Virus record (IMG/VR): IMGVR_UViG_3300045282_000084
Span: 1 to 64,000 of that record
Length of the DNA stretch: 64,000 nt
Source of the DNA: a virus
Strand: one strand, 5' to 3'
Each line of letters begins with the position of its first letter. Positions within the stretch are counted from its first letter, which is position 1. The notes below the pieces were generated by a model, which was given only the letters and a program-made list of their open reading frames with translations, was not told the origin of the DNA and did no database searches. A program made the translations under genes and the position numbers. Shown here in pieces: positions 4,721 to 22,670 of this stretch.

Positions 4721-5764
4721 ATGGGCGTTCTGGAACAGGAGCGAATCGCAGAGCGAGAGTTCTGCGTCGATGTCCCCTTCGAGGTCAAGTCCGCTGACGG
4801 TTCCAAGTCTGGCGACCTGAGTCTCAAGGGGCTGGCGTCCACGTGGATGGAGGACAGGGACGGCGAGACCGTCGATCGGCACGCCTTTGACGAGGACCTG
4901 CCGACCTACATGAGCACCAACCCGATCCTGCTCTGGCAGCACTCGCAGGAGATGCCGCTGGGTCAGGTCACAACTGCTCAGGTCAGCGACGCTGGGCTGG
5001 CTGTCAAGGCGTTCGTGCCCAAGCCGACCACTGGCATGTCCGCGTGGAAGTTCGACGCCTACAACGACATCAAGCGCGGCGTCGTGCGCACCTTCTCCAT
5101 CGGTGGGCTGATGCAGCGAGAGCTGCGCTGGCCCGCCAACGGTGATGGGACTCCCAACTACGACGTAGACCCGAAAATCTTCATCCCTCGGGTCATGTTG
5201 CTCGAAATCAGTTGCGTGTCCATCCCGGCAAACCCTGGGTCTCTGTACGAGGCTGCGGTCAAGTCGATCAAGGGAGCGGGAGTGGGGCCTGTGCTGACAG
5301 ACAACGTGAAGGAGCAGATGGCACAGCTCCTGGGAATGAAGGCCGTCACCGACGAGGCGCTCAAGGCCATGTCTGATGACGAGCGCGAGCGGCATTTTGC
5401 TGCTCTCTCTCGCCTGTACCAGCGCTGTGGTCTGGTCGCCCCTGAGCGCGATTCATGGAAGCGAGCCGCGGGGGTGATGGAGAAGGCGACGAGCGCGAAC
5501 ACCATCCTGATGGCTACGATTCCCCCACTGATGCTGACCCTGGGGATGGTCAAGACCGGCCGGGGTGGGAACGTCAGTGAGCAGGATCGCGAAGAAGCCC
5601 GTCACGTGAGCATCGATCGCGTGGCTGCTGCACTCAAGGGCGAGAAGTTCGATGACGACTCGGCGACTGATCCATCGGAGAAGATGGCTCAGATCGACGC
5701 AATCAAGCAGTTGGGCCTTGCGATCGCGGGCCTCGGAACCGACACGGGAGGGACGGATGGCTGA
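4721..5764 (+). CDS. HK97-family prohead (maturation) protease
   Basis: GLAST...DRDGE.V...AF, NPILLWQH, FSIGG, LLEISCVSIPANP. Confidence 0.92.
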   Translation: MGVLEQERIAEREFCVDVPFEVKSADGSKSGDLSLKGLASTWMEDRDGETVDRHAFDEDLPTYMSTNPILLWQHSQEMPLGQVTTAQVSDAGLAVKAFVPKPTTGMSAWKFDAYNDIKRGVVRTFSIGGLMQRELRWPANGDGTPNYDVDPKIFIPRVMLLEISCVSIPANPGSLYEAAVKSIKGAGVGPVLTDNVKEQMAQLLGMKAVTDEALKAMSDDERERHFAALSRLYQRCGLVAPERDSWKRAAGVMEKATSANTILMATIPPLMLTLGMVKTGRGGNVSEQDREEARHVSIDRVAAALKGEKFDDDSATDPSEKMAQIDAIKQLGLAIAGLGTDTGGTDG

Positions 5765-7327: not shown

Positions 7328-8209
7328 ATGGCTCGCAGCAAGATGGTCATCGCTGCGTCTCAGCATCTGGTTGACGCCAAACACTGTCTGTTCGGGGCGG
7401 ACGACAACTCGCGTGGGTTCACCGGCCCGCTTGGCATCGAGACGCAGATGGGCAAGGGCATGGGGGTGCGCAACCGCCACTACTCGTGGAACGCACCGGT
7501 AGGCACCATCGGGATCAACTGGGCGGCTGACTACACCAAGGGCCACATCCCCATGATTTCCCTCGGCGGTCAGGGCTACTCAGAGGAGATCGTGAAGGAG
7601 ATCGTCGCGGGCAATCACGACGCCTACTTCACCGCCATGTTCACGGCCATCAAGATGGGCAAGGGTATCTTCCGCCCGTGGATGGAGATGAACGGTGGTC
7701 ACAACACCTACTCGGCCGACACCGTGGCCTACATCGCCATGTGGAAGCGCGTGTATGAGCTGGCCCAGAAGGCGATGGCGACCAACCTGACCTGGGTCTT
7801 CTGTCCGCAGACGTTCGATCGCAAGAGCGTGTGGCCGAGCTACTGGCCGGGCGATGAGTACGTGGACTGGATGGGGCTCGATCTGTACCGCGACATCTTC
7901 GCCGCTGGAGATCCCTGGCGCTTGTGGGCGAACATGCACCACAAGCCCTTCTGCGTGTGCGAGTCGGGATTTCAGCAGGGCGTGCGGGTCAAGGGGTCTG
8001 ACGGCCGCAGCTACGACAAGGATGGAACGCTCACGGGCAACTCGCTGATCGACCAGGCTCGACTGGCGGTGAAGGCTCACCAGAACACGGTCATGTACCT
8101 GGTCTGGAACAACATCGGCCCCATCGGGGACGACTTCATCGACACCAGCCCCGAGTCCTTGCAGCAGTACCGGGCGTTCGCCGCTGACTCCTACTTCAAG
8201 TTCGTCTAG
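7328..8209 (+). CDS. glycoside hydrolase family 26-like (mannanase/glucanase clan GH-A)
   Basis: G.HDAY, IFRPWMEMNG (acid/base E), YIAMWKRV, WVFCP, YWPGDEYVDWMGLDLY, KPFCVCESG (nucleophile E). Confidence 0.85.
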   Translation: MARSKMVIAASQHLVDAKHCLFGADDNSRGFTGPLGIETQMGKGMGVRNRHYSWNAPVGTIGINWAADYTKGHIPMISLGGQGYSEEIVKEIVAGNHDAYFTAMFTAIKMGKGIFRPWMEMNGGHNTYSADTVAYIAMWKRVYELAQKAMATNLTWVFCPQTFDRKSVWPSYWPGDEYVDWMGLDLYRDIFAAGDPWRLWANMHHKPFCVCESGFQQGVRVKGSDGRSYDKDGTLTGNSLIDQARLAVKAHQNTVMYLVWNNIGPIGDDFIDTSPESLQQYRAFAADSYFKFV

Positions 8210-8217
8210 GGGCTGCG

Positions 8218-10029
8218 ATGGGGGCGTACACACCACAGACGTGGCACGACGCTGATCCAACCACGCCGATCAGCGCCGCACGGCTGACGCACATTGAGGC
8301 TGGGCTTACCGACGCGGCCGCCCCTGCGAACCTCGCCATCGTGACACCCAGCGGGAACACCACCGCTGGTCTTACGATCGACACTCAGGACACGGCGACG
8401 GGATCGCAGGGGGTTGGGATCAACTGCGCCACTGGTGGGGGTACTGCTCACGCTCATGCCTTGTCGGCGATCCTGAGCGGCACCGGCAACGCCTTCTCCA
8501 GCGCGGCCAACTTCGTGTCCTCGAACCAGGCGGCAAGCTGCGTGCAGGTCAGCGGCAGCGAGACCGGGCGTGGCACCGTCAAGATCGCCCACACCGGGCC
8601 TGGCACCAACGCTGACGCCAACGCCGCCGCCCTGTCGATCAATCTCATCGGTGCGAGCACAGCCGCGATGGGCGTGTTCGTTGACTCGGTAGCTCAGGGC
8701 ACGACTGGGGACCTTCTGCGGCTCAAGAACAACGGCAACGAGATTTTCCGAGTGCAGACCGATGCTGGGTTCACCACGCCCATCATCAAGATCGGCGCAT
8801 CTCAGACGCAGCTCCTGGTCGGCGCTGGTGCACCATCAGGCGTGGTGTCCGCACCCACCGGATCGCTGTACCTAAACAGCTCTGGTGGCGTTGGCCTCAG
8901 TCTGTGGATCAAGGAGACGGGATCTGGTACGAGTGGGTGGGCGGTGCTGGGTGGCACCCTCAACGCCAAGAGCTACGGGGCCAAGGGCGACGGCTCCACC
9001 GACGACACGACCGCCCTGACGGCGTGGGTCACAGCCATCAACGCAGCCTCTGCTGGCTCCGAGGCCATCCTCCCGGCTGGCCAGTACGTGATCACCGCTC
9101 CGCTGCCTACCATCACCGCCACGGGCGTGACCATCAGGGGTAGCGGCTGGGCTCAGACCGCCAATACCACGGGCTCGGTCATCACCGCTGGCGTTGGCTG
9201 GAGCGGCACGGCCATTCTGACTCTGAACGGCGAGGGGATTGAGCTGCGGGGGCTGACCATCGATGCCGCAAACCGGGCGACTTCGGCCATCGTGATTACG
9301 GCTGCCAACTGCCGCCTGAACGGTATGAGCGCGCGGTCGAGCATCACCAACGGCGTCGTCGTGGACGTGCAGACCGGGGGCAACTCAATCTGGATGGCCG
9401 ACTGTCGCATCAACGGGATCAACTCGGGTGTGGTCGGAATCCAGATCAACGACACCGACGCCATCATCCACGGCTGCAAGCCGGTCAACTGCTTGCATTG
9501 CATCGTGCTGCTAGCGGGGGCTTCGGGTGCCCAGTTGATGGACAACCACATGACGCCGGGAGCTGGTGGCCAATGCTGTGTGTTCGTCAGCGGCAGCCCC
9601 AGCCACGTGCAGATGGACGGCAATCGCTTCGACAACTACGTGCGCTCCGCTGTCCAGATCACGCCCACAGCCTCGACGCCGAACAGCATCTCGATCACCA
9701 ACAACCACTTCCACTCCACGATTCAGACCGACAACACCTACGCCCTGATCGCCCTTGACACCACGGCGTCGGGCGTGCGCGGCCTGCATATCGTCGGCAA
9801 CTCGGGTTACGGCTCGGCCACGAACCGGCCCAAGTGGGCGCTGGCTTCGCAGGTGATCGACGGCACCACTCCCACGAACGTGACCCGCCTGAGCACGCTC
9901 GGGTCGCTGTACAACAGCAACACCATGTGGGCGGCGACGACCTCCTTCGGCAATGCGAGCCCGCTCGTGGCTCGTGGCAATCTGACTACCACGGATGGCA
10001 CCACGTATGCTGCCGTCACCGACATCTAG
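8218..10029 (+). CDS. spike/fibre: phage hyaluronidase (HylP)-like region plus pectate-lyase-3-like right-handed beta-helix
   Basis: FSSAANFVSSNQAASCVQVSGSETGRGTVKIAH...DANAAALSINL..STAAMGVFVDS..GTTGDLLRLKN resembles streptococcal phage HylP; NAKSYGAKGDGSTDDTTAL followed by PbH1-type repeats. Confidence 0.75.
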   Translation: MGAYTPQTWHDADPTTPISAARLTHIEAGLTDAAAPANLAIVTPSGNTTAGLTIDTQDTATGSQGVGINCATGGGTAHAHALSAILSGTGNAFSSAANFVSSNQAASCVQVSGSETGRGTVKIAHTGPGTNADANAAALSINLIGASTAAMGVFVDSVAQGTTGDLLRLKNNGNEIFRVQTDAGFTTPIIKIGASQTQLLVGAGAPSGVVSAPTGSLYLNSSGGVGLSLWIKETGSGTSGWAVLGGTLNAKSYGAKGDGSTDDTTALTAWVTAINAASAGSEAILPAGQYVITAPLPTITATGVTIRGSGWAQTANTTGSVITAGVGWSGTAILTLNGEGIELRGLTIDAANRATSAIVITAANCRLNGMSARSSITNGVVVDVQTGGNSIWMADCRINGINSGVVGIQINDTDAIIHGCKPVNCLHCIVLLAGASGAQLMDNHMTPGAGGQCCVFVSGSPSHVQMDGNRFDNYVRSAVQITPTASTPNSISITNNHFHSTIQTDNTYALIALDTTASGVRGLHIVGNSGYGSATNRPKWALASQVIDGTTPTNVTRLSTLGSLYNSNTMWAATTSFGNASPLVARGNLTTTDGTTYAAVTDI

Positions 10030-10042
10030 AGGAAGATGAGGA

Positions 10043-10264
10043 ATGGATCGAGTCTTCGACATTACTGATGCAGGTGGGCCTGGCTATCCACATTGGTGGC
10101 TGAATCTGAATCAGGTTGTAGAGCTGTATATCTTGCACGCAGCCCCGGTATGGGAGCTTCACTTGCAGTTCGTCACAACCCAAGAAGCAGTCTTCTCTTA
10201 CGAGACGGAATACGATGCCACAGATGCGCTTGCGACGTGGGTAGGTCGCATCAACGCTGCGTGA
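10043..10264 (+). CDS. hypothetical protein
   Basis: GAGG RBS; fills the operon gap; lower GC. Confidence 0.5.
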   Translation: MDRVFDITDAGGPGYPHWWLNLNQVVELYILHAAPVWELHLQFVTTQEAVFSYETEYDATDALATWVGRINAA

Positions 10265-10278
10265 AGGGAATGTGAACT

Positions 10279-10719
10279 ATGGCGATCTATGAGGTTGGCT
10301 GGACAAGTACCGCAGCCGCTGGTACTGCTCCATACGCCGAGTTCCGTACTGGATCAGGAAACCCAGCCTTGATCTATGAGATGGGGTTTGCTTGTAGCAC
10401 AGCCGTCGCATCACCCGTTGCAATCTTTCGTCCCGCTGCCATTGGGATCACGCCCGGTACAACAGTCATTCCCATCCCAGTTGACTCTGACTACCCGGCA
10501 TCAACTGTGACTGTGGCAAATACTTGGGGCACTGCTCCAACCATTTCTACGAATGTATCCCCAAGACGTACAAACTTGGCAGCGGCTATTGGTGCCGGAG
10601 TGGTGTGGACGTGGCCGGTTCAGCCATTGAAGATCCCAAAGTCAAGCTCTCTGGTGATCTGGAATGTAAGTGCCACTCTAGCTGCGCCGCTGAACTGTTA
10701 CATCTCATACATGGAGTGA
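10279..10719 (+). CDS. hypothetical beta-rich structural protein
   Basis: T/A/P-rich; directly precedes the giant fibre gene; lower GC. Confidence 0.6.
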   Translation: MAIYEVGWTSTAAAGTAPYAEFRTGSGNPALIYEMGFACSTAVASPVAIFRPAAIGITPGTTVIPIPVDSDYPASTVTVANTWGTAPTISTNVSPRRTNLAAAIGAGVVWTWPVQPLKIPKSSSLVIWNVSATLAAPLNCYISYME

Positions 10720-10722
10720 CAC

Positions 10723-13700
10723 ATGGGCCTGCAATCCAGGCTCGGTGGTTTTCCATCATCGTCGGGCTTGAGCACGCGGTCGGGGTTCAACCGACCTAGC
10801 TCGCTGACATTCCAGTCGCAGGACTGGATCAAGATGATGCTGGCCACGCCTGCTGGTCAGTTCTCGCAGCAGACGCTGACCGATGACGCGTCGAAGTTCT
10901 TAGGTGGAACAGGGCCGGGATCTGCGACGTTCCCGATCGCCCTGAGCGACACGATCTCCGTGTCCGACACCCTACCCGTTCTCGTCGTCAGGCAGTTGAT
11001 CGATACTGCCATCACTCCTACTGCGGCGACGCCTACGGGTCTGACCAACTCCGCCGAGGGCGGCTCAAACGGCGTGACCGTCACTACTGCGAATAGTGGC
11101 GGCGCCAGCGGAAATGCGTGGACAACTGTGGCGGGTTCGCCGACGTTTCAATCGACACAGGTAGCACACGGTTCTCTTGCCTACAACATCCCAACCAATA
11201 GTGAAACTCTGATTTGGACTCAGGGTTCTGTTTCAGATGGGTATGTCAGGGCGTACTTTTATCTCTCGGCAAGTACGGCAGACTTTCGCATTTTCGGCTT
11301 CTTGGCCGCGTCTATTCAGTGGCGTATTCGTCTAAACACAAGCACATTCATCATTCAGAATGGCGCAGGAACAACAACTGAGGCAACCGGCACCGCGGTG
11401 TCCTCGGGGCAATGGTATCGGCTAGAGCTTCACCACAACTCGGCCGCACAGTTGGAGGCGAAGCTCTGGAACTCAAAGGATTCCAGTGGTGCAGCAGATC
11501 AGGACCTGGTTGCGGCTACTGCTACCAACTCGAACATCGATGAGCTGGAGTTCACATCGGGTGGAGCAGTCTCGTCGGTGTACCTGGACGATCTGAATGG
11601 GTTTGCTACGGCGTGGCCCGGTCCGGCCATTGGTGGGTCGATGGACACGCTGGTCGTGGCAATCACGCACACGCACCCGATTGCGCTCACCGACACGATC
11701 TCCATCACAGACTCCCTGCCGGTCAAGGTCGGGCGGTTCATCAGCGACACGATCTCGATCACAGACCTTCTGCTGCGCATAGCTCGCCCGCACATTGCCG
11801 ACACGATCTCGGTCACGGATGCCCTCGCGCGCAAGTTCGGCCCCTTTTTGGCGGACACGATCTCGATCACTGACGCCCTGATCGCGCTGAGGACACGAGC
11901 CCTGTCTGACACCATCTCGATCACTGACGCGCTCGCTCGCACGGCGCGTCCATCGATGGCCGACACCATTGCGGTCTCCGACCTGCTGCACACCCGCGCA
12001 GGTCCGCTACTCGCGGACACCATCACCGTCACCGACTCGCTCAAGCGGGCCATTGGCGAGATGGGGTTGATCGACACCATCTCCGTCACCGAGTCGTTGG
12101 CAAGGAGGAGCGCAACCGCTCCCACCGACACGATCTCAGTCTCCGATTCACTGGCCACCACCAGGGTCAGGTTCCTCGCCGACACGATCTCCGTGACTGA
12201 TGCATTGGCCAGAGGTGGGTTTGCCCGCTCGCTGACCGACACCATCAGCCTGACAGACGCGATCGTGAAGTTCGCCGTCCACGGCTTGGCTGACACGATC
12301 GCCATCTCCGACGCGCTCCCTACTGGCCGGAATCGGCCGCTGATGGACAGCGCCTACTCGTGGGCGTTCACCGATACGTTCACCCGTAGCTCGTCCACGG
12401 TGTTCGGGGGATCGTGGATTGGCACCAGCAGCCCGCACTTCAACGTGGATGGCTCCGAGGCTCAAGCGGTGTCGGTGATCGCCTCTCGCACCGGTCAGCA
12501 GTATCTCCTCGTCGGTCAAGCTGATGTACAGGTTCAGGTTCGGATGATGTTCGACCAGCTCCCGACGGGAGCAGGGCCGGTCGATTTCGGCGTGTGGGTT
12601 GACTCAGACAGCGCCAATGCCAACGGCTATCGCACCCGTTGGCAGATAGCCGTGGCTGGCACGATCTCGAATGTAACCGCGAGCGATGTGGCTACCACTC
12701 TGGCCACAGTGTCGTCTGGTACCCCATCTCAGGGCACGCCGCTGCCTGGTGAGTGGTGGTGGATGAAGGTCGAGCGGGCAGGGGTGAACCTGCGCGTCAA
12801 GGCTTGGAGGCAGACCAGCGTCGAGCCGTCTGCCTGGGATCACGACACCGTGGATACGGCCGTGCCCCCTGGCCAATACGTCGGTGTTCACTTCCAGACG
12901 CCTGCGGGCGTGACAAACACGCCGACGTTCAACTGGGACGACTTCTCCTGGCGCACGACCGATGTGCTGGTCAAGTCGGTGCCAGTGCTCTCCGACACGA
13001 TCAGTGTGTCCGACACGCTGATCTCTGGTCGGACTCGGCCCATCGCCGACACCATCTCGATCACAGATGCGCTTGTCAAGGGTGGCGCTGTACAGCGAGC
13101 CCTGTCAGACACGATCAGCGTCACGGACGCCATTGCTCGGCGGGCCTTGCCACTTGTGGCTGATTCAATCTCCCTCTCAGATTCGATTGGTAGAGGAAGA
13201 TCGCTAGTCGATGACGGTACGACGATGGGCGACCAGACCCTCGTCAGCGACACCTACACGCGGTCTGTGGGTAGCGGACTGGGCACGGCCGACACCGGTC
13301 AGACCTATGGCAACTTCGGAGCCTCGTCGGTGAATGGCTCTGCCGCTGTGCTTCCGGCCATCGCGAACACGGGCGTGGGCGCCTTCGTCAACGGGATCAC
13401 CAAGATCAACGAGGGCGGTTTGGTCAAGATCGCCTTCTCGGCGACGCCCACCGACACGATCTCGGTCTTCACGTTCCTGCGGCTAAACCCTGGCTTCACC
13501 GCCTACTACAACGTCCACCTGTATCTGTTCTCGGGTACGACGGTCAACCTCTCCAACACCGTCTTCACTCCGAGCACGACCTTTGCGGCTCCCGGTTCGG
13601 ACGTGACCATCGACGCCGCTTGGGTGAACACCCAGTCCTACTGGATGCGCTTCGAGGTGCAGGGCAACCAGCTTCGCTGGCGCGCATGGAAGGACGGCTC

Positions 13701-16700
13701 CGGTGAGCCAACGGCCTGGATGTTCATCACCACCGATTCCTCAGTCTCAACCGGGGGAACCGTTGGCTTCCAGACGTTCGGCGGCGCAGCTCTCACCGCT
13801 GGGATCAACGTCACCTTTGACAATCTGCTCGGCTACAACAACTCCGACAGCCTTCTGCTGAGGCCCACTCGCCCGCTGTCGGACACGATCTCGGTTTCAG
13901 ATTCGCTGCGGTTCAAGTTCGGGCGGCCGATCAGCGACACGATCTCAATCACCGACGCGCTGGTCAAGGGTGGGGTGAGCGCTCGCCCGATCTCGGACAC
14001 GATCAGCGTCTCCGATCTCCTTGCGCGCCGAGAGCAGCCGCTGATTACCGACACCATCAGCGTCTCGGATTCGCTGGTCAAGGCGGCAGTCAAGCTCATC
14101 GCCGACACGATCTCGGTGACCGACGCACTGCTGAGGGCTCCCACCCCGAAGCTCGCCGACACGATCGCGGTCTCGGACGCCCTGGCGTCACTTCGGGTGC
14201 GGCCACTGTCAGACACGATCGCGGTCAGCGATGGTCTGACGCTGCGAGTTGGCCGACCCATAGCCGACACCATCGCCGTCACGGATGGCCTGGCGAGCGT
14301 GGTCTCGGTGGTGCTGCACAACGACTTCGACACCGGCCAGACCTCGGGCACCACGATCACGACGGGCAACTCGGGTGCGACCGGCGACAACGCCTTCAAC
14401 ACCGTCGCTGGCGTCCCCACGTATGACTCGACCATTGCCTTTGCGGGCACGCTGTCGATGGCCTGCATCACCGGGGCAACGCGACAGGTCGGGTGGAGCA
14501 CCTCCCTGGGCACGCAGACTCTGCTGTGGGGACGCGCCTATGGCTCCTTCGCCTCACTCGCGGGCACGGCTATCCGCATCGTGCAGGCAGACGGCAATGT
14601 CACCACCAACCTGCTGCGCATCGCCACGGTGGCTGCCACTGGCGCGCTCCAGATCAGCGTCGCGAGCTTTGGCACGGTCACCACCACCCACACGCTCACC
14701 GCCAACCAGTGGTTCCGCATTGAGTGGAAGTTCCAGGTCACAGGCTCAGTCTCCTCGGTGGAACTCAAGCTGTTCCTCACTCCCACGTCGAGCACACCCG
14801 ACGAGACCATCTCCACATCGTTCGCTGAGACCGACTCCAGCTTTGCAGCCGTCAAGATCGGGGTTGGCTCAACCTCTGGCTCAACGTTCAACTTCGATGA
14901 GCTGAACACCAACAATCTGGGCTATCCAGGCCCGATCGCTGGGGGTGCATCCCGAGCCCTCACCGACACCATCTCTATCACTGACCTACTGCCGGTCAAG
15001 GTTGGACGATTCCTCGCAGAGACGATCACGGTCACCGACACGCTCGCGAGACGAACGCAGGTGGCGCTTGCCGAGACCATCTCAGTCACCGATCTGCTGG
15101 CACGAAGGGTTGGTCGTCCCCTCGCCGACACCATCTCGATCACCGATTTGCTGCCGGTCAGAGTTGGCCGCTTCCTGATCGACACCATCTCGATCACCGA
15201 CCTTCTCGCACGCGCACAGCTTCGCACGCTTGCCGACACCATCACCATCACTGATGCGCTGGCTGCCCTGGCCAAGCGTGGCCTCGTAGACACGATCTCT
15301 GTCACAGACTCGCTGCCGATCAGGGTCGCTCGATTCCTCACCGACACCATCTCCGTCACAGACCTGCTCGCGCGCGCACAGCTTCGCAGCCTGCTCGACA
15401 CGATCTCGATCACCGACGCCCTGGTTGTCCTGGCCAAGCGCGGGCTGACCGACACGATCGCCGTCACTGACGCGCTGGCGCTGAGAGTCGGACGCCCGCT
15501 CACCGACACCATCTCCATCACCGATTCCCTCGCGCGGCGAACGACGAGGCCCATAGCCGACACGATCTCGGTTACCGATGCGCTGGTACCAAGACGGTAC
15601 CGGCTGCTCGCAGACTCGATCACTGGCGGCGGCGCGGGGACGACGCCCACAGTCCGCTCGTCCAACGTGGCCGCATCGAGCGCCACCACGACCCTGAGCT
15701 TCTCCTCGCTGCCAAGTGGGGCCGCGGTGGGCGACATCTTGATGGTGCACGTCTCGGCCGTGCTCGGCTCCTCGGACATCACCTGCACCACCTCCAACCT
15801 TACGCGCTCGGTGATCACGAACGACTCCACCACCCTGCGCAGCGCGGTCTTCTGGCGAACGCTCACCTCCGGCGACATCTCCTCGCCGCCCACCATGAGC
15901 TTCTCGGGACCGAGCGCCACAGGCATGCACCTGAATGCCATGTGCGTGGTCGGGGCTGATCCCACCACGCCGGTAGCCAACACCGCCTCTGGGGCTTCGT
16001 CGGGCACCAGGGCCAGGGACATCACCATCGGTGGCAACACGGGGGAAGCTGCGGGCGAACTCGTGCTGGCTCTGATCGGGTCGAACTCCTCGCCCGTGCC
16101 GTGGGCGACCAACAACATCGTCGGCGCGCCGCTGGCAATGATCACGTCGGAACAGGTGCCTGGCGGCATGGTGGACTCGACTTCACAAGCCCGTGTCGAG
16201 ACGGCGATCGGCTTCAAGACTCCGATTGGGCATAGCTGGTACCAGTGGGACATGTCGGCTTACACCTTCCCGGAGGCTGGGGGTTCGGGGACTGGTGTCA
16301 CCAGCGACTACGAGAACAATCGCCTCAGCAGCATCTCGTGGCCCTCGGAGCAGACCTGGCCTGGTGGGCAGAACGCGACCGTCGTCTCCCCTAACGCGCC
16401 ATCTGGCGACACCAGCCCGAGCTACTGGCTCCAATATCTCGCCCAGGGCAACTACGACGCGCTGATCTACGCCTTCATGGCGAAGCTGCGGACGTGGGGC
16501 CGTGCGGTCGTGTTCCGCCCCTTCTGCGAGATGAATGGTGGTGACCACCCCTGGGAGGTTGCCTGGGAGACACATGTCCACCGTGCGACCGACGCCGAAC
16601 ATGCGACCTACTTGAAGCTGGCGTGGCAGCGCGTGTTCCTGATCGCCAAGGGCACCGACGCGGAGTTGGCATCTGCGGGCATGTTGAGCGCAGGTGGATT

Positions 16701-19700
16701 CACCACCAGCTCGCTTGCCTACACCCAGAACAGCGGTCACTCAGCCGATGCGCAGAACGTGTTCTTTCACTGGAACCCGCAGGCGTTCGAGACCTCGACC
16801 ACGAACCGTTGGGATGACTACTGGCCCGGAACGACGCCGAGCGGTCGGGCGTACGTGGACTTCGCAGGTGTCGAGCTGTACATCTCAACTGGGGGCACGT
16901 GGTCGTCAACGCTGAATCAGCTACTGCATTCCACAACGGTCAACTCTGGGCGAACACATAACTCCCTGTATGACCACTACATCCCATTGACGAATCTCAA
17001 CGGCGGTGGATCGGGCGAGACTGGCTACCGGTACAAGTCGAGTGAGGCTTCGACCGCCGCCGCCATCGCTCGCATCAACAGCATCTTCGACGGCACCAAC
17101 GGTCTGGCGTTCAACCCTCTGTGGCGATTCCTCGGCTACTGGGATGGTGGGTTGGAGACTGGGACAAACGGTGACTCCCACGTCGATAACACCGGCCACT
17201 CGGACATCAGAACCGCGATCACCACTATCCTGGCCACCGGCTACCTGCGGCCGGTGCTGACCGACACGATGCTGTCTGCCCCTTCGGGGTGGACGCTTGG
17301 AAAGCAAGCTCGGCGCTCTCTCGATACCGGGAGTACGAGCGCACACACGAACGGTGGCCCAGGCGAGGTTGGCTCAATCGTGCTGTGGGCGAGCGCTCCG
17401 ATCGCGTCAGCCACAGCGAGCACGGTTGGGTACGGCAACTACACGTCGCTGTCGTTACTGGTTTCTCCGATCTCAGTTGCGGGGATTTCCGACACCATCT
17501 CCTTCACCGTGCGGCCAACGGTTCCGCTGGTGGACACCATCACCATCACGGAGTCGATCCAGCTCCGCACCGCGTACAAGATCGCGGACACGATCTCCAT
17601 CAGCGACTCTCTCGCTCGCGCGCAGCCCCGAGCCCTCGCCGACACGATCTCGATCACCGATGCGATCAAGCGCCGGATCACGCCGCTGCTCACCGACATT
17701 GGTGCCTTCCCGAACCTGCTGCTGCCTGGCGGCACGGTGCTCCCTGGCGGCGGGGTCGTTGCTACCGACTGCGACACGCTGGCCGTCACGGTCAGACGGT
17801 TCCTGGCTGACACGATCTCGGTCTCTGACTCGCTGGTGCGCAAGCCGACTCGCGCGCTCATCGACACCATCGCCGTCAGCGACAGCCTGGTCAAGTACGC
17901 CGCGAAGCTGCTGGCCGACACCATCGCGGTCTCCGACTCTCTGGCGCGACGGGTCACCAGGCCACTCGCCGACACCATCGCGATCTCCGACGCTCTGGCA
18001 AAGGGCACCTTGCTGCACCTGTCCGAGACCATCTCCGTCTCGGACACACTCGCCAGCCTTCGGGTCAGGCCGATCACCGACACGATCTCGATCACCGAGA
18101 ACCTGGCAACGTCGGCTTCGGGTCACAAGAGCGTCACGCTGTCAGACACGATCTCGGTCAGCGACGCGTTGGCACTGCGGACCACCCGTCTGTTCGCCGA
18201 CTCCATCTCAATCACCGACAACCTGACGGCCGTAGCCGGTCACAGGCAGGTCGCCCTTGCCGACACGATCGCCGTCTCTGATTTGCTCGCCCGCAAGGGT
18301 GCGCCTCAACTGACCGACACGATTGCTGTCGGCACCGATCAGACCCTTGGCGCCGACACATTCTCTCGCACCGTACCCGTAGGTCTCGGCATAGCGGACT
18401 CTGGTCAGAGCTACGGCACCTTCGGTTCAGGAATCAGTGTCGGCTCTGGGGTGGCCTCGATCCCATTCGCTGCGAACACCGGCATCGGCGGCTACATGGT
18501 CGGGCCAAACTCGAAGAACACTGGCGCGCTGATGAAGATGGGCTTCACGGCGCTGCCGGACGATATCGCAAGCTCCTTCCTGCTTCTGCGCCTCGACTCA
18601 GGATTCACCCACTACTACAACGCTCACCTGTACCTGACGCCAGGTGGCCAGGTCGTCCTGAGTCGCACCATCTTCACGCCGTCTGGCTCTTTTGACGCAG
18701 GCACGAGCGACATCACCATCGATGCCTCGTGGGTGAACACGCAGGCGTACTGGCTGAGGTTCGAGGCTTTGGGCACAACCCTGCGCTGGAAGGCGTGGAA
18801 GGACGGGTCGAGTGAGCCGCACGCTTGGTCGTTCGTGACGGTGGATGGCAGCGTGTCCGCATCAGGCACGGTTGGCTTCCAGACCTTCGCGAATGCGGGC
18901 CTGACGGCGAGCGTTCAGGGCACCTTCGATCAGCTCAGTTTCTACAGCCCCGGCGATTGGATCACCACCGCTCTGCCCAGCCGCCATCTGCCGCTCGTTG
19001 ACACCATCTCGATCAGCGACCGGCTCCAGCACCACGTTCTGGGCACGAGCATCACAGCGGCACAGACGACCGATCCTCACTACGCGCCGATCGTCCTGCG
19101 CTCGTTCCAGTCGGTGACCCCGGAGTACGAGATGCAGTGGGGGCAGGTGGAGCCTTCGCAGGGCACGTTCTTCTGGACGAACGTTGACACGATCACCGCC
19201 TGGGCGGTGGCCAATCGCAAGCAAGTGAGGGGCCACACACTGATCTGGGACGGCGGTGGCGACCCGGCGATGATGCCGCCCTGGGTCACGGGCGGATCAT
19301 GGACATCGACCACGCTCAAGGCTGCCCTCCAGGCTCACATCAACGCTGTCGTCGGCCGCTACAAGGGCGTGGTTCGGGTCTGGCATGTGGTCAACGAGGC
19401 ATTCGAGGACGACGGTTCACGCACGAACTGGATCTTCCAGAACGTCATCGGAGACTCGTGGATCGAGCTTGCATTCCAGTACGCCTATGCCGCTGACCCG
19501 ACCGCAAAGCTGCTCTACAACGACTATGGCGACGACTGGGGCTACTACAGCCTGAATCCGAAATACAACGCCATCCTGGCGATGGCGACTGACTTTGTGA
19601 ATCGTGGCATTCCGATTCACGGCATCGGCTTCCAGGGCCATTACGACCTCCAGTACACCGATTATCCCGACCCAGCCGATCTGACGGGGGTTCTTTCAAC

Positions 19701-20613
19701 CTACGCCGCCCTCGGTCTTGAAGTTCATCTGACCGAGCTGGATTGTCGCATCGACAACGTGGCTGACCCGATGGCGACCAGACTCACTAACCAGGCCACC
19801 GTGTACAGAAACGCCAGGAACGGCTTGGTTGGTGCGCAGGGCGATTACATCAACATCTGGGGCATCTCCGACGCGACCAACTGGCTTGGTCCCACGGCCG
19901 CGTCAGCCCCACTCGACACCCGCTACATCGAGAAGCCAGCGTGGAGGCAGATCAACGACTTCGTTGAGCCCGCCACCTTCTACCCAGGGTTGACCGACAC
20001 GATCTCGGTGTCAGACGCGCTGACGACGAAGCGCACGCACGCTTTGGCCGATGCGATCTCGATCAGCGATGCGCTGTCGGTCAGGCACCCGCGCACCCTG
20101 GCTGACTCGATCTCTGTCACTGACTCCTTGCGCCGCACTCCTGGGCCGCGGTTGGCCGACACGATCGTGATCTCCGACAGCCTGCGCGCGCAGGTCGGCA
20201 AACGGAATCTTGCCGACGCGATCAGCGTCTCTGACGCGCTCAATGTCGGCCCAGCGCGCCGTCTGAACGACAGCCTCAGCGTCACGGACAGCCTCAAGTC
20301 GCTCCGCATCCGTCGCCTTGACGACACCATCGCCATCAGCGATCGGATCAAGGGTCAGCAGATCCTTCACGACGGCTTCCAGGTCAGTGACCTGCTCACG
20401 TTCGTAGGCACGTTCCTCGAACTCCAGGCGTTCTTCACTCTGCGCGATTTTGCTGCCGTGCGCTTCCTGACCGCCGATTTCGCAGCCGTGGGCTTCACAT
20501 CGATCACCCGCCGCTTCGCCCGTTCGACCACAGCGGAGAAGCTGGTCGGCTTCACCAGTCGGGACTTCCGGGCGACCGACACCGTGCTGACCGAGGAACC
20601 GGATACAGTTTGA
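10723..20613 (+). CDS. 3296-aa repeat-rich fibre/appendage with ConA/LamG-like, GH26 and GH10 domains
   Basis: ~55-60 copies of an 18-aa L.DTIS(V/I)(T/S)D.L repeat; GH26 motifs RPFCEMNG, YWPG...VDFAGVELY, GETG; GH10 motifs TPEYEMQW, RGHTLIW, WHVVNE, LLYNDY, GIGFQGH, TELD, IWGISD. Confidence 0.85.
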   Translation: MGLQSRLGGFPSSSGLSTRSGFNRPSSLTFQSQDWIKMMLATPAGQFSQQTLTDDASKFLGGTGPGSATFPIALSDTISVSDTLPVLVVRQLIDTAITPTAATPTGLTNSAEGGSNGVTVTTANSGGASGNAWTTVAGSPTFQSTQVAHGSLAYNIPTNSETLIWTQGSVSDGYVRAYFYLSASTADFRIFGFLAASIQWRIRLNTSTFIIQNGAGTTTEATGTAVSSGQWYRLELHHNSAAQLEAKLWNSKDSSGAADQDLVAATATNSNIDELEFTSGGAVSSVYLDDLNGFATAWPGPAIGGSMDTLVVAITHTHPIALTDTISITDSLPVKVGRFISDTISITDLLLRIARPHIADTISVTDALARKFGPFLADTISITDALIALRTRALSDTISITDALARTARPSMADTIAVSDLLHTRAGPLLADTITVTDSLKRAIGEMGLIDTISVTESLARRSATAPTDTISVSDSLATTRVRFLADTISVTDALARGGFARSLTDTISLTDAIVKFAVHGLADTIAISDALPTGRNRPLMDSAYSWAFTDTFTRSSSTVFGGSWIGTSSPHFNVDGSEAQAVSVIASRTGQQYLLVGQADVQVQVRMMFDQLPTGAGPVDFGVWVDSDSANANGYRTRWQIAVAGTISNVTASDVATTLATVSSGTPSQGTPLPGEWWWMKVERAGVNLRVKAWRQTSVEPSAWDHDTVDTAVPPGQYVGVHFQTPAGVTNTPTFNWDDFSWRTTDVLVKSVPVLSDTISVSDTLISGRTRPIADTISITDALVKGGAVQRALSDTISVTDAIARRALPLVADSISLSDSIGRGRSLVDDGTTMGDQTLVSDTYTRSVGSGLGTADTGQTYGNFGASSVNGSAAVLPAIANTGVGAFVNGITKINEGGLVKIAFSATPTDTISVFTFLRLNPGFTAYYNVHLYLFSGTTVNLSNTVFTPSTTFAAPGSDVTIDAAWVNTQSYWMRFEVQGNQLRWRAWKDGSGEPTAWMFITTDSSVSTGGTVGFQTFGGAALTAGINVTFDNLLGYNNSDSLLLRPTRPLSDTISVSDSLRFKFGRPISDTISITDALVKGGVSARPISDTISVSDLLARREQPLITDTISVSDSLVKAAVKLIADTISVTDALLRAPTPKLADTIAVSDALASLRVRPLSDTIAVSDGLTLRVGRPIADTIAVTDGLASVVSVVLHNDFDTGQTSGTTITTGNSGATGDNAFNTVAGVPTYDSTIAFAGTLSMACITGATRQVGWSTSLGTQTLLWGRAYGSFASLAGTAIRIVQADGNVTTNLLRIATVAATGALQISVASFGTVTTTHTLTANQWFRIEWKFQVTGSVSSVELKLFLTPTSSTPDETISTSFAETDSSFAAVKIGVGSTSGSTFNFDELNTNNLGYPGPIAGGASRALTDTISITDLLPVKVGRFLAETITVTDTLARRTQVALAETISVTDLLARRVGRPLADTISITDLLPVRVGRFLIDTISITDLLARAQLRTLADTITITDALAALAKRGLVDTISVTDSLPIRVARFLTDTISVTDLLARAQLRSLLDTISITDALVVLAKRGLTDTIAVTDALALRVGRPLTDTISITDSLARRTTRPIADTISVTDALVPRRYRLLADSITGGGAGTTPTVRSSNVAASSATTTLSFSSLPSGAAVGDILMVHVSAVLGSSDITCTTSNLTRSVITNDSTTLRSAVFWRTLTSGDISSPPTMSFSGPSATGMHLNAMCVVGADPTTPVANTASGASSGTRARDITIGGNTGEAAGELVLALIGSNSSPVPWATNNIVGAPLAMITSEQVPGGMVDSTSQARVETAIGFKTPIGHSWYQWDMSAYTFPEAGGSGTGVTSDYENNRLSSISWPSEQTWPGGQNATVVSPNAPSGDTSPSYWLQYLAQGNYDALIYAFMAKLRTWGRAVVFRPFCEMNGGDHPWEVAWETHVHRATDAEHATYLKLAWQRVFLIAKGTDAELASAGMLSAGGFTTSSLAYTQNSGHSADAQNVFFHWNPQAFETSTTNRWDDYWPGTTPSGRAYVDFAGVELYISTGGTWSSTLNQLLHSTTVNSGRTHNSLYDHYIPLTNLNGGGSGETGYRYKSSEASTAAAIARINSIFDGTNGLAFNPLWRFLGYWDGGLETGTNGDSHVDNTGHSDIRTAITTILATGYLRPVLTDTMLSAPSGWTLGKQARRSLDTGSTSAHTNGGPGEVGSIVLWASAPIASATASTVGYGNYTSLSLLVSPISVAGISDTISFTVRPTVPLVDTITITESIQLRTAYKIADTISISDSLARAQPRALADTISITDAIKRRITPLLTDIGAFPNLLLPGGTVLPGGGVVATDCDTLAVTVRRFLADTISVSDSLVRKPTRALIDTIAVSDSLVKYAAKLLADTIAVSDSLARRVTRPLADTIAISDALAKGTLLHLSETISVSDTLASLRVRPITDTISITENLATSASGHKSVTLSDTISVSDALALRTTRLFADSISITDNLTAVAGHRQVALADTIAVSDLLARKGAPQLTDTIAVGTDQTLGADTFSRTVPVGLGIADSGQSYGTFGSGISVGSGVASIPFAANTGIGGYMVGPNSKNTGALMKMGFTALPDDIASSFLLLRLDSGFTHYYNAHLYLTPGGQVVLSRTIFTPSGSFDAGTSDITIDASWVNTQAYWLRFEALGTTLRWKAWKDGSSEPHAWSFVTVDGSVSASGTVGFQTFANAGLTASVQGTFDQLSFYSPGDWITTALPSRHLPLVDTISISDRLQHHVLGTSITAAQTTDPHYAPIVLRSFQSVTPEYEMQWGQVEPSQGTFFWTNVDTITAWAVANRKQVRGHTLIWDGGGDPAMMPPWVTGGSWTSTTLKAALQAHINAVVGRYKGVVRVWHVVNEAFEDDGSRTNWIFQNVIGDSWIELAFQYAYAADPTAKLLYNDYGDDWGYYSLNPKYNAILAMATDFVNRGIPIHGIGFQGHYDLQYTDYPDPADLTGVLSTYAALGLEVHLTELDCRIDNVADPMATRLTNQATVYRNARNGLVGAQGDYINIWGISDATNWLGPTAASAPLDTRYIEKPAWRQINDFVEPATFYPGLTDTISVSDALTTKRTHALADAISISDALSVRHPRTLADSISVTDSLRRTPGPRLADTIVISDSLRAQVGKRNLADAISVSDALNVGPARRLNDSLSVTDSLKSLRIRRLDDTIAISDRIKGQQILHDGFQVSDLLTFVGTFLELQAFFTLRDFAAVRFLTADFAAVGFTSITRRFARSTTAEKLVGFTSRDFRATDTVLTEEPDTV
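11680..20400 (+). repeat. six blocks of degenerate 54-bp (18-aa) tandem repeats, core GACACSATCTCSRTCACCGAC
   Basis: Blocks at approximately 11680-12340, 12985-13200, 13870-14295, 14950-15620, 17490-18330, 19990-20400. Confidence 0.9.
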
Positions 20614-20616
20614 CCC

Positions 20617-20898
20617 ATGTCTGAGAACGTGTACGACAAGGGCGATGAAGTGATTTTCCAGACGACGATCAAGGATCGCAACGGCATACTGATCGATCCT
20701 AGTGGCGTGCAGTTCTCGATCATCTTCCCCGACAAGACCTCGCAGAGCCCCACGCCCAGTCGCGATTCTCTCGGTATCTATGAGACCAAGGCCGTCTGCA
20801 CGCAGGTCGGGCGGTACTTCTACAGATGGACGACCACGGGTGGGGATTACATTGGCGCTGACGAGCGGAGTTTCTCAGTTCGTCCCAGCGCCTTCTGA
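20617..20898 (+). CDS. small Ig-like virion protein
   Basis: YDKGD.V......D..G.L.DP.......P...........G.Y........G.Y.YRW pattern. Confidence 0.6.
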   Translation: MSENVYDKGDEVIFQTTIKDRNGILIDPSGVQFSIIFPDKTSQSPTPSRDSLGIYETKAVCTQVGRYFYRWTTTGGDYIGADERSFSVRPSAF

Positions 20899-21083: not shown

Positions 21084-22670
21084 GTGGATCTTGAGGCCGT
21101 TCTCAAGCGCCTGACTGAGCTGGCAGAGAAGGCTGCTGCCGGTGAAAACGTGGATGAGGAGCGAAAGAAGCTGGAGGCAGAAAAGGCACGTCTCCAGCGT
21201 GAGGAGGACGAGCGCGCCGCCAAGGCCGCTGACGCAGAGGACACCAAGGGCCAGAAGGCCGACGACAACTCGAACGAGTCCGAGCTTGACCGGCTTCGTC
21301 GTGAGAAGCGCGAGCGCGATGAGCGCGAGTTCGTTCAGAGCGTCGTAGGCAAGGCGCTCGAAGTTGCTCGTGGAAATCAGGACGAGCAGCGCAAGCGGAT
21401 GCAGTCTCTGGCCGAGGAGGAGCTTGCCAAGGCTCTCGGCGGTGGTGCACTTGACGAGACCGTGCGCGGTCTCCTCGCCTCGACCCGCACCGAGTCCCGC
21501 TTCATTGGCGCAGGTGGCGACGAGGATGTCGCCAAGGCCATCGCAGCGGGAGGCACAGTGGATCGAAACTACGCCGGGGGTACCCAGGTCGCCATCTCCA
21601 AGGGAGCAGAGGCGATCTTCAAGCGCAAGTCCCTGGCTGAGTTCATGTCGATCGTCGCCCGCGCCTCGCGGCCAGCGATGGGCATCCTCAAGCCCGAGGA
21701 GAAGGAGTTCCTGGAGTGGTCGCAGAAGGCAGCCCTCGCAGAGGGCACGACCACAGCCGGTGGGTTCCTGATCCACCCCGAGTGGATGCCTGACATCCTC
21801 GGCCTGCTCCGTGGCTGGGCGATCGTGCGTCAGGCCAATCCGCGTATCGTGCCGTTCTCCAGGCTCATGAACCAGACGAGCATCTCGTCAGGCGCAACGG
21901 CCTTCTACACGGCAGAGAACGCGGTCATCTCGCCAAGCGGGATGACGTTCAACGAGGCTCCGCTGCTGACGCCGCACAACCTGACGGCGCTGGTGCCAGT
22001 CTCCAACTACCTGCTCAACGACGCGGCTGCTGCCGAGGGCATCGTCCGCGACGACCTCGCCGTGGTCATGGGGCTGCGCGAGGATCTCGCGTTCATCCAG
22101 GGCGTCGGTACCGGCGGCGAGCCTCTGGGCCTGCGCAACATCTCCGGTATCACGCTGAACCCGCTGACGGTCGCCACCAACGGCATCGCCGTCAACCTCG
22201 TCAACATGCGCCAGATCAAGAACACCGTCCGCTCGATGAACGCGGTCGGCGCTCGCTGGGCCTGGTTCTTCAACCCGGCGCTGGTCTCGCATCTGGAGAC
22301 TCTGACCGACTCGTTCGGCCGCTTCCTGGCGGACACGTCGATCCTCTCCTACGACGAGCCGAACCACAGCGGCACCCTCGACGGCGTACCGTTCTTCACC
22401 TCCAACCAGATCCCCATCAACCTGACGACCGGCACGTCTACGAACACCACGTATCTGATGCTGGTGAACATGTCCGAGACGATCGTCGGAGCGAGCCAGG
22501 ATCTGACCCTGGACGTGTCGAGCGAGGCGTCGTACACCACAGACGGTGGCACCACCTGGGTGTCCACTTTCCAGAACAACCAGACGCTGTTCCGGGCCGT
22601 GATGCGGCATGACATCAATCACCGCCGCCCGAACCAGATCATCGTGCAGACCGGGGTGATTGTCCCGTAA
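21084..22670 (+). CDS. HK97-fold major capsid protein with N-terminal coiled-coil (delta) domain
   Basis: AGGAGG RBS; E/K/R coiled coil; ALAEGTTTAGGFLIHPE, AEN, L.ALVPVSN.LLND, EDLAFIQG.GTGGEPLGL, FQNNQTLFRA..RHD. Confidence 0.93.
   Translation: MDLEAVLKRLTELAEKAAAGENVDEERKKLEAEKARLQREEDERAAKAADAEDTKGQKADDNSNESELDRLRREKRERDEREFVQSVVGKALEVARGNQDEQRKRMQSLAEEELAKALGGGALDETVRGLLASTRTESRFIGAGGDEDVAKAIAAGGTVDRNYAGGTQVAISKGAEAIFKRKSLAEFMSIVARASRPAMGILKPEEKEFLEWSQKAALAEGTTTAGGFLIHPEWMPDILGLLRGWAIVRQANPRIVPFSRLMNQTSISSGATAFYTAENAVISPSGMTFNEAPLLTPHNLTALVPVSNYLLNDAAAAEGIVRDDLAVVMGLREDLAFIQGVGTGGEPLGLRNISGITLNPLTVATNGIAVNLVNMRQIKNTVRSMNAVGARWAWFFNPALVSHLETLTDSFGRFLADTSILSYDEPNHSGTLDGVPFFTSNQIPINLTTGTSTNTTYLMLVNMSETIVGASQDLTLDVSSEASYTTDGGTTWVSTFQNNQTLFRAVMRHDINHRRPNQIIVQTGVIVP

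What the first reader, a model, noticed from the sequence alone, without database searches (positions are those of the whole stretch)
10723..20613. Giant 'string-of-beads' fibre carrying GH26 and GH10 enzymes
Seen: 3296 aa with ~55-60 18-aa repeats linking at least eight globular domains: two related 'NSG.A.G.NA' ConA-like domains (~11040-11630, ~14310-14935), three related 'DT(F/Y).R...LR.(K/R)AW....EP.AW' domains (~12360-12960, ~13230-13840, ~18335-18950), a beta-sandwich, a GH26 (catalytic E codon 16528) and a GH10 (E codons 19396 and 19735). Known: GH10 and GH26 are TIM-barrel xylanase- and mannanase-type families, unlike the usual beta-helical phage depolymerases. The GH10 has TPEYEMQW in place of the usual TPENEMKW, hinting at altered specificity. 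Inference: a virion-displayed multi-enzyme filament, cellulosome-like in logic.
Basis: partly seen in the sequence, partly recalled or inferred. Interest (0 to 1): 0.85.

Follow-up and report, generated by a model that had tools for sequence, protein, structure and literature searches.

The report
Giant enzyme-studded phage fibre protein
An uncultured soil phage encodes a 3,296-residue protein in which 58 copies of an undescribed 18-residue repeat string together two apparently active sugar-cutting enzymes (GH10, GH26) and six other globular modules (five of them probably sugar-binding), most likely a virion appendage that binds and cuts polysaccharide around the host, though attachment to the virion is not shown.

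Summary
Window 10723-20613 (+) is one open frame of 3,296 aa (about 349 kDa). It has 58 copies of an 18-aa repeat (consensus L-A-D-T-I-S-V-T-D-A-L-A-R-R-x-x-R-P), in seven arrays and three single copies, linking eight globular modules.

- **GH10:** certain (Pfam 244 bits; PDB 2e-54). Both catalytic Glu and the conserved -1 subsite residues are kept. The near-universal Lys of ENEMK is Gln, seen in 1 of 120 relatives.
- **GH26:** real but divergent. Pfam misses it, but 14 of 22 relatives are GH26, and their profile hits the CtLic26A lichenase at 7e-65. Both catalytic Glu are kept.
- **A and B modules:** A x2 and B x3 are paralogues. They are only weakly supported as ConA-like, because the AF2 models were poor.
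- **Setting:** the gene sits in a 15-kb glycan-enzyme cassette between the prohead protease and the major capsid gene of a soil siphovirus, and is translationally coupled to its neighbours.
- **Assembly:** an independent assembly and a second soil study reproduce the sequence.
- **Relatives:** rare and uncharacterised. The closest (33% identity) carries GH5 instead, and the same repeat builds giant Nitrososphaera surface proteins.

Virion display is inferred, not shown, and head versus tail is unresolved. No cohesin or dockerin domain was found, so it is cellulosome-like in logic only. The scan has no note of this on other DNA.

The parts
10723..20613 (+). Giant ORF, 3,296 aa, about 349 kDa, pI 5.2. 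No signal peptide or TM-like segment. GGAG lies 8 nt upstream of the ATG.
10723..10947 (+). N-terminal 75 aa with no detectable relatives. Candidate attachment end.
10990..11688 (+). Module A1 (aa 90-322), paralogue of A2. Probably a ConA-like beta-sandwich.
11686..12339 (+). Repeat array 1: 12 x 18 aa.
12334..12993 (+). Module B1 (aa 538-757). No GH16-type ExDxxE motif was seen on reading the sequence, so it is probably lectin-like.
12988..13215 (+). Repeat array 2: 4 units.
13204..13881 (+). Module B2 (aa 828-1053).
13876..14313 (+). Repeat array 3: 8 units.
14308..14964 (+). Module A2 (aa 1196-1414).
14959..15612 (+). Repeat array 4: 12 units, with a recent 162-nt (3-unit) higher-order duplication.
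15604..16227 (+). Module C (aa 1628-1835). It is the constant N-terminal partner of this GH26 subfamily in proteins without the repeat.
16228..17508 (+). Divergent GH26 barrel (aa 1836 to about 2200) plus a subfamily-specific extension of about 60 aa. Acid/base E1936 (codon 16528); nucleophile E2099 (codon 17017).
17527..17694 (+). Repeat array 5: 3 units, followed by a Gly/Pro-rich linker (17695-17802).
17803..18342 (+). Repeat array 6: 10 units.
18334..19002 (+). Module B3 (aa 2538-2760), 55% identical to B2.
19036..19956 (+). GH10 catalytic domain (aa 2772-3078). N2891/E2892 acid/base and E3005 nucleophile. Q2805 replaces the conserved Lys.
19990..20376 (+). Repeat array 7: 7 units.
20365..20610 (+). 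C-terminal tail of about 80 aa, with a Phe-rich roughly 10-aa periodicity. Weakly similar to the tail of the closest relative P0002. Candidate anchor.
7328..8209 (+). Same cassette: stand-alone GH26-like protein, 293 aa.
8218..10029 (+). Same cassette: 603-aa HylP N-terminal domain plus pectate-lyase-like beta-helix, built like a tailspike.
10279..10719 (+). 146-aa ORF of unknown function. Its stop codon overlaps the ribosome-binding site of the giant gene.
20617..20898 (+). 93-aa ORF starting 3 nt after the giant gene's stop. Faint Ig-like hint only (Big_1, E 0.045, below cut-off).
4721..5764 (+). Prohead serine protease (S78), the left border of the cassette.
21084..22670 (+). HK97-fold major capsid protein, the right border of the cassette.

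Best explanation
The gene encodes a giant modular, glycan-targeting appendage of an uncultured soil siphovirus. About a third of the chain (58 x 18 aa) is a beta-strand repeat that serves as a stalk or spacer. Eight globular modules loop out of it: five lectin-like beta-sandwich modules (A x2, B x3), a C-GH26 enzyme module of the lichenase-like branch, and a GH10 enzyme with a changed -2/-1 subsite. It is expressed with the head and tail genes. It most likely rides on the virion, where its many binding modules hold the particle on a beta-linked polysaccharide (host capsule, EPS or wall glycan, or the plant-derived matrix around the host) and its two endo-glycanases cut a path. Two smaller glycan enzymes from the same cassette would assist. 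Shown: the open frame, the repeats, the module relationships, GH10 and GH26 identity with intact catalytic residues, the position in the structural block, and presence in two soil studies. Inferred: virion attachment, oligomeric state, substrate, and head versus tail location. Gene position favours head or neck, and a separate LamG-bearing tail protein already fills the usual tail-tip slot.
For: GH10 scores 244 bits in Pfam, and every catalytic and -1 subsite residue checked is invariant among 120 relatives. GH26 membership comes from transitive and profile evidence, with both catalytic Glu kept. The gene lies between the prohead protease and the HK97-type capsid gene. The same strand also carries portal, connectors, major tail protein, a 1,888-aa tape measure and the lysis genes. 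Its start is coupled to the upstream gene, and the next gene starts 3 nt after its stop. It has no signal peptide or TM segment, so it is not exported by the host. The cassette also holds a tailspike-like HylP/pectate-lyase protein. The repeat matches one PHROG phage family, phrog_12240 (function unknown), and also occurs fused to a LamG domain in a complete 41-kb IMG/VR phage. The closest relative, P0002, has the same repeats, B modules and tail but carries GH5, which indicates an exchangeable enzyme cargo. Codon data show protein-level selection on the repeat. Every module is followed by a re-entry into the repeat at the same register, R/P-x-L-x-DTIS.
Against: There is no direct evidence of virion association. 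No anchor domain resembles known head-decoration, neck or tail-fibre attachment domains. AF2 gave no usable model of the repeat, so neither filament nor trimer is supported. GH10 and GH26 are classic plant-polysaccharide families, so a released 'metabolic' enzyme cannot be excluded. The gene neighbourhoods of two phage relatives were uninformative. The host is unknown. In Nitrososphaera the same repeat builds membrane-anchored cell-surface proteins, so the repeat alone does not mark a virion protein.
Confidence: 0.55

Rival explanations
1. The protein is a soluble multi-enzyme that is not part of the virion. It would be made late and released at lysis, as an auxiliary or 'public-good' CAZyme that breaks down plant hemicellulose or matrix polysaccharide around lysing cells. 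This could free progeny phage or feed the host population.
For: GH10 and GH26 are typical hemicellulase families, and the nearest named GH10s are secreted xylanases of Stigmatella and Streptomyces. The phage comes from soil. Functional glycoside-hydrolase 'AMGs' of soil viruses are documented (PMC9485262, seen). No virion anchor was detected.
Against: The gene is embedded and translationally coupled inside the head gene block. A third of the chain is a costly repeat stalk that a free enzyme does not need. A tailspike-like protein sits in the same cassette. The repeat co-occurs with LamG domains that match PHROG families annotated as virion structural protein or baseplate wedge.
Confidence: 0.22
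2. The protein is an adhesin only. The GH10 and GH26 barrels would have become non-cutting lectins that bind glycan, so the protein is a multivalent receptor-binding fibre without depolymerase activity.
For: GH10 has lost the almost universal Lys (K->Q, 1 of 120 relatives). The GH26 module has Cys at the position just before the acid/base Glu, in R-P-F-C-E-M-N-G; from memory, that position is usually His. Pfam fails to recognise the GH26.
Against: Both Glu of both enzymes, and all other checked active-site residues, are kept. The closest GH10 relative, P0056, shares the Gln, which suggests a working sub-type rather than decay.
Confidence: 0.1
3. The long frame is an artefact: a mis-assembled repeat region, or two or more genes wrongly read as one. 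The public gene call holds only the C-terminal 1,648 aa.
For: The protein on record for this contig, P0016, starts at an internal GTG (nt 15667).
Against: The frame has no stop for 9,888 nt, and the same repeats lie on both sides of 15667. An independent 17-kb Logan contig is identical over 10000-19092, and a second study holds matching pieces. The DNA repeats are only about 55% identical, so they are not prone to collapse. Relatives of 3,094 aa and 2,834 aa have the same beads-on-a-string layout.
Confidence: 0.03

Closest known systems
Phage virion-associated depolymerases (tailspikes and tail fibres with enzymatic domains, such as Klebsiella phage capsule depolymerases and streptococcal phage HylP)
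   Same: A phage-encoded polysaccharide-cutting activity encoded among the structural genes. A HylP/pectate-lyase protein of that classical type sits two genes upstream.
   Different: The catalytic modules here are TIM barrels (GH10, GH26), not trimeric beta-helices. Two enzymes and five lectin-like modules sit in one 349-kDa chain on an 18-aa repeat stalk. The gene lies between protease and capsid, not after the tape measure.
GH10 endo-beta-1,4-xylanases (for example the Cex / S. olivaceoviridis Xyn10 chimera, PDB 1v6y)
   Same: The sequence matches over the full barrel (E 2e-54, about 40-45% identity). The catalytic Glu pair and the His, Trp, Gln, His and Trp of the -1 subsite are conserved.
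   Different: Gln replaces Lys in the ENEMK motif, and Tyr replaces Asn. The domain is embedded in a phage repeat protein rather than a secreted enzyme with a CBM2 or CBM13.
GH26, lichenase branch (Clostridium thermocellum CtLic26A, PDB 2bv9)
   Same: The profile of this subfamily aligns over the whole barrel at E 7e-65. The R-x-x-x-E-x-N-G acid/base motif and the nucleophile Glu align.
   Different: The window's own sequence is below Pfam detection. The subfamily has only 21 members among 1.84 billion cluster representatives. It always carries the C module in front and an extension of about 60 aa behind.
Cellulosomes and multi-modular CAZymes
   Same: Several glycan enzymes and binding modules are held together on one elongated scaffold.
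   Different: Pfam found no cohesin or dockerin domain in the protein. Assembly is covalent, in a single polypeptide, and the scaffold is an 18-aa repeat rather than cohesin domains.
Capsid decoration and head-fibre proteins (lambda gpD slot, phi29 gp8.5, T4 Hoc); gene orders are from general knowledge
   Same: The gene sits in the protease-to-capsid interval, where lambda-like phages keep scaffold and decoration genes.
   Different: No sequence similarity to any decoration family was detected. The protein is 10 to 30 times larger and carries enzymes.
Giant Nitrososphaera surface proteins (P0003, N. viennensis, 4,047 aa; P0007, N. evergladensis, 3,221 aa)
   Same: They contain the same 18-aa repeat type (S-R-S-L-S-D-S-V-T-V-T-D-A-I...) in long arrays.
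   Different: They are cellular. P0003, whose sequence was read, ends in a hydrophobic, TM-like C-terminal segment. Each has one uninterrupted array, and no GH modules were noted in it.

Membership tests
GH10 (PF00331) | Full-length match to the family model above the curated cut-off | tested here: met
   243.9 bits against a cut-off of 22.1; profile positions 12-309 of 311. 250 bits in the genome scan.
GH10 (PF00331) | Catalytic acid/base (N-E) and nucleophile (T-E-x-D) glutamates | tested here: met
   N2891/E2892 and E3005, each invariant in 120 of 120 relatives. They align with 1v6y.
GH10 (PF00331) | Conserved Lys and Asn of the E-N-E-M-K substrate-binding motif | tested here: not met
   Y2802 stands for Asn (Tyr in 14 of 120 relatives). 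Q2805 stands for Lys (Lys in 117 of 120, Gln in 1). This bears on specificity, not on fold membership.
GH10 (PF00331) | Endo-beta-1,4-xylanase activity | not testable with these tools
   Needs a recombinant enzyme assay.
GH26 (PF02156) | Match of the protein itself to the family model | tested here: not met
   No Pfam hit at E<=1 for aa 1780-2270. No hit for the 365-aa core.
GH26 (PF02156) | Homology to GH26 through relatives and their profile | tested here: met
   14 of 22 aligned relatives hit PF02156 (best 3.8e-25). Their profile hits CtLic26A at 6.6e-65 and GH26 mannanases down to about 2e-21. BLASTP to the neighbouring GH26-like ORF gives 4e-9.
GH26 (PF02156) | Two catalytic glutamates on strands 4 and 7 | tested here: met
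   E1936 and E2099 are nearly invariant in the subfamily. Their profile columns align with the CtLic26A motifs.
Phage tailspike / depolymerase RBP | Trimeric beta-helix catalytic domain and a recognisable N-terminal virion-anchor domain | tested here: not met
   The catalytic modules are TIM barrels. The N-terminal 75 aa match nothing in Pfam or in the genome's other ORFs, and the only PHROG hit of the whole protein lies in the repeats.
Cellulosome component | Cohesin or dockerin modules | tested here: not met
   Pfam found only GH10 in the whole protein and nothing in the isolated segments.
ConA-like lectin/glucanase fold (modules A and B) | Jelly-roll beta-sandwich shown by a structure or profile match | tested here: inconclusive
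   No Pfam hit and no significant PDB-profile hit. The AF2 models reach only pLDDT 39-41. Their Foldseek hits are nevertheless dominated by LamG/neurexin, legume lectins, galectin, GH16 and PL7 (A: best E 1.3e-2; B: best E 5.4e-4).
Virion structural protein | Physical presence in the particle | not testable with these tools
   Only the gene's position and its coupling to neighbours are available.

The most novel reading that the evidence does not exclude
The protein is a capsid- or neck-anchored fibre, a covalent 'mini-cellulosome' on a phage particle. It would display two different TIM-barrel endo-glycanases and five lectin modules along a stalk built from a previously undescribed 18-residue beta-repeat. 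The repeats would double as recombination joints for swapping enzyme cargo (GH10/GH26 here, GH5 in the nearest relative). The same stalk repeat is shared with giant surface proteins of soil Thaumarchaeota.
Probability: 0.25. Interest if true: 0.85.

Novelty: new variant of a known kind. Interest (0 to 1): 0.66.

Why it matters
Phage depolymerases are known almost only as trimeric beta-helix tailspikes carrying one enzyme each. If this protein is on the virion, it would show that phages can mount several unrelated TIM-barrel glycanases and binding modules on one long chain, encoded at the capsid locus. That would widen what counts as a receptor-binding or matrix-penetrating device.

It would also bear on soil viral glycoside hydrolases, which are routinely scored as carbon-cycling 'auxiliary metabolic genes'. 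Some of them may instead be entry hardware.

The 18-aa repeat is an unnamed structural element: it has no Pfam or NCBIfam match, and no convincing match to a solved structure. It occurs in phages and in Nitrososphaera giant surface proteins. Its fold, and its apparent use as a plug-in scaffold, could be tested directly with short recombinant constructs.

Tried and rejected
**Structure prediction**
- AF2 of B2 and A2 with flanking repeats used alignments of only 3-4 rows. The models reached pLDDT 39 and 41. They are unusable for the repeat fold or for loop-out geometry, and both prediction jobs are spent.
- I ran Foldseek on them only as a weak hint.

**Sequence searches that found nothing useful**
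- PDB profile searches for modules A and B gave nothing significant.
- phmmer of a repeat array against the PDB gave only a spurious periodic match to an unrelated repeat protein.
- NCBIfam found nothing for the repeat or for modules A, B and C.
- tblastn of a repeat array against 50,697 GenBank phages found no match, though the low-complexity filter may contribute.
- No N- or C-terminal anchor is shared with any other ORF of the 79-kb record.

**Search for relatives' loci**
- P0001 and P0002 found nothing in viral contigs.
- P0002 found nothing in metagenome contigs.
- The GH26 alignment found nothing in genome contigs.
- Two alignments were too variable to be searched.
- A degenerate two-core DNA pattern in viral contigs returned 12 loci. 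Ten of them carry a different hexapeptide (DTIGVS) repeat; only L004 and L007 carry the 18-aa type.

- The ESM Atlas could not read new sequences. The stored relative P0054 showed only a phage-typical C-terminal domain.

**Context and host**
- PHROG annotation around L004 and L007 was uninformative.
- There are no tRNAs. Portal, capsid and endolysin are at most 35% identical to any cultured phage, with only faint actinobacterial leanings. I name no host.
- Runs X3 and X4 hold only a small share of the sampled words and are not used as evidence of habitat.
Full report
**What is there**

Window 10723-20613 (+) is a single open frame of 3,296 codons. A GGAG lies 8 nt before the ATG, and the upstream gene's stop codon lies inside that ribosome-binding site. 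The next gene starts 3 nt after the stop of the giant gene. The product is about 349 kDa with pI 5.2, and it has no signal peptide or TM-like segment.

A motif scan finds 58 repeat cores, and 42 of them lie exactly 18 residues from the next one. The consensus is L-[A/T/S]-D-T-I-S-[V/I]-[T/S]-D-[A/S]-L-A-R-R-x-x-R-[P]. On one face of the predicted strand, hydrophobic residues (L, I, V, L) alternate with two invariant Asp. The other face is small and polar. A basic loop follows. This reading of the pattern is inference.

The units average 55.5% identity in DNA and 47.5% in protein. The conserved Ser is written with both TCN and AGY codons. The motif is therefore maintained by selection on the protein, not by recent slippage. 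The one exception is a 162-nt, three-unit duplication in array 4.

**Is it an artefact?**

Probably not. An independent Logan assembly of the probable source run gives one 17-kb contig identical over 10000-19092, with overlapping contigs covering the rest. A second soil study holds near-identical short contigs spread along the gene.

The public protein record for this contig (P0016) holds only the C-terminal 1,648 aa, starting at an internal GTG at nt 15667. However, the frame stays open upstream and the same repeats continue there. Relatives of 3,094 and 2,834 aa also have the same layout. I read it as one gene.

**The modules**

- **A and B.** A1 and A2 are paralogues (25% identity, E 3e-9). 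B1, B2 and B3 are paralogues (B2/B3 55%, B1/B3 28%).
  - Neither type matches Pfam, NCBIfam or a PDB profile.
  - The two AF2 jobs gave poor models (pLDDT 39 and 41).
  - Their Foldseek hit lists are nonetheless dominated by the ConA-like fold class: neurexin LNS, legume lectins, galectin, GH16 and PL7, plus a phage Dit carbohydrate-binding module.
  - I treat 'ConA-like, probably carbohydrate-binding' as likely but unproven. I saw no GH16-type ExDxxE motif on reading the B sequences.
- **C.** C (aa 1628-1835) always precedes this GH26 type in relatives that lack the repeat, such as P0018-P0022, P0025 and P0026. C-GH26 therefore looks like a pre-existing unit that was inserted whole.
- **GH26.**
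  - Pfam does not see GH26 in this protein.
  - The core has only 21 relatives among 1.84 billion cluster representatives. Of 22 aligned sequences, 14 are Pfam GH26.
  - Their profile hits the C. thermocellum lichenase CtLic26A at 6.6e-65 and GH26 mannanases at about 1e-20.
  - The region also matches the stand-alone GH26-like ORF at 7328-8209.
  - R1932, E1936, Y2053 and E2099 are nearly invariant.
- **GH10.**
  - It is unambiguous.
  - Among 120 relatives, N2891, E2892, E3005, H2838, W2842, Q2971, H2973 and W3046 are invariant.
  - The Tyr in place of Asn is a known minority state (14 of 120). The Gln in place of Lys is nearly unique: it is shared only with the closest relative, P0056, at 45% identity.

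**Register**

Each module is followed by a return to the repeat at the same register, R/P-x-L-x-D-T-I-S. The first strand of B (D-T-F/Y-T/S-R) mimics a repeat core. It fits modules that loop out of a continuous stalk, and repeats that serve as recombination joints. Both of those readings are inference.

**Setting**

- The record is a 79-kb linear IMG/VR contig, estimated at about 78% complete.
- On the same strand lie:
  - a portal fused to a MuF-like part;
  - an S78 prohead protease;
  - a 15-kb cassette: several small unknown ORFs, the 293-aa GH26-like ORF, the 603-aa HylP/pectate-lyase protein, the 146-aa ORF, the giant gene and the 93-aa ORF;
  - the HK97-type capsid protein;
  - connectors, a major tail protein, a 1,888-aa tape measure with a transglycosylase motif, and a 1,315-aa tail protein with a Laminin_G_3 domain;
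  - the lysis genes.
- The protease and the capsid protein map to adjacent parts of one PHROG model, phrog_617. In relatives the two therefore appear to be fused or contiguous, and the cassette looks like an insertion between them.
- No cultured phage is close. The phage comes from soil, and its host is unknown.

**Relatives**

- Only 14 giant proteins in 5.8 billion clusters match.
- P0002 (3,094 aa, 33% identity) has the repeats, B modules and a weakly similar C-terminal tail. It carries GH5 (PF00150) and a region with Asp-box-like motifs.
- P0005 and P0038 carry Laminin_G_3 domains.
- A complete 41-kb IMG/VR phage encodes a 390-aa protein with a LamG domain and six repeats. It matches the same phrog_12240 as the giant protein.
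- Nitrososphaera viennensis and N. evergladensis have giant proteins with long uninterrupted arrays of the same repeat. The N. viennensis protein, which I read, ends in a TM-like hydrophobic segment.
- The repeat is thus a general stalk element, not a signature of virions.

**Reading**

The best-supported explanation (0.55) is a virion appendage that binds and cuts a beta-linked polysaccharide. Enzyme cargo would be exchangeable between relatives. Gene position and the presence of a separate tail-tip LamG protein favour a head or neck location, but this is open.

The rivals are a lysis-released multi-enzyme (0.22), a non-cutting adhesin (0.10) and an artefact (0.03).

If the stalk is extended, 58 repeats would span roughly 28 nm (one strand per repeat) to about 80 nm (triple beta-helix or beta-spiral geometry). 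This is arithmetic on assumed rises per repeat, not evidence.

**Limits**

- The ESM Atlas could not read new sequences.
- Both structure predictions failed for lack of alignment depth.

Noticed in passing
window 4721-5764 and 21084-22670: The prohead protease and the major capsid protein map to adjacent parts of one PHROG model (phrog_617, positions 28-166 and 162-623 of 626). In relatives they therefore appear to be one fused protein. Here, 15 kb of cargo separates them.
   Followed up: partly
window 15667-20613: The protein on record for this contig (P0016, 1,648 aa) begins at an internal GTG and covers only the C-terminal half of the open frame. Public annotation therefore probably under-reports the gene.
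   Followed up: partly
L002, L003, L005, L006, L008-L013 (IMG/VR): A different, hexapeptide repeat (D-T-I-G-V-S, up to about 8 copies) sits in proteins that are about 850-980 aa long where complete (some are cut at contig ends), in many viral contigs, after a conserved T-L-P-G-Y motif. It shares the DTIxVSD core with the 18-aa repeat. No PHROG match was found for the two tested.
   Followed up: partly
L018 15743-18352 (-) and L019 644-2593 (+): In both IMG/VR phages that carry the 18-aa repeat, a glycosyltransferase/methyltransferase fusion gene lies just upstream of the repeat protein. The Ser/Thr-rich repeats might be glycosylated; this is speculation.
   Followed up: no
window 35014-38961: The 1,315-aa tail protein downstream of the tape measure carries a Laminin_G_3 domain (3.7e-21). 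The phage therefore has a conventional tail-tip glycan-binding protein in addition to the giant one.
   Followed up: partly
window 833-3118: The portal protein (761 aa) has a C-terminal extension that matches MuF/SPP1 gp7-like minor head protein families.
   Followed up: no
window 27742-33408: The 1,888-aa tape measure has an internal transglycosylase-like motif (aa 1423-1521). Its length implies a very long tail.
   Followed up: no
window 10001-12000: GC content drops to 57% at the 5' end of the giant gene (N-terminus and A1), against 62-64% elsewhere. This may mark a more recent acquisition.
   Followed up: no
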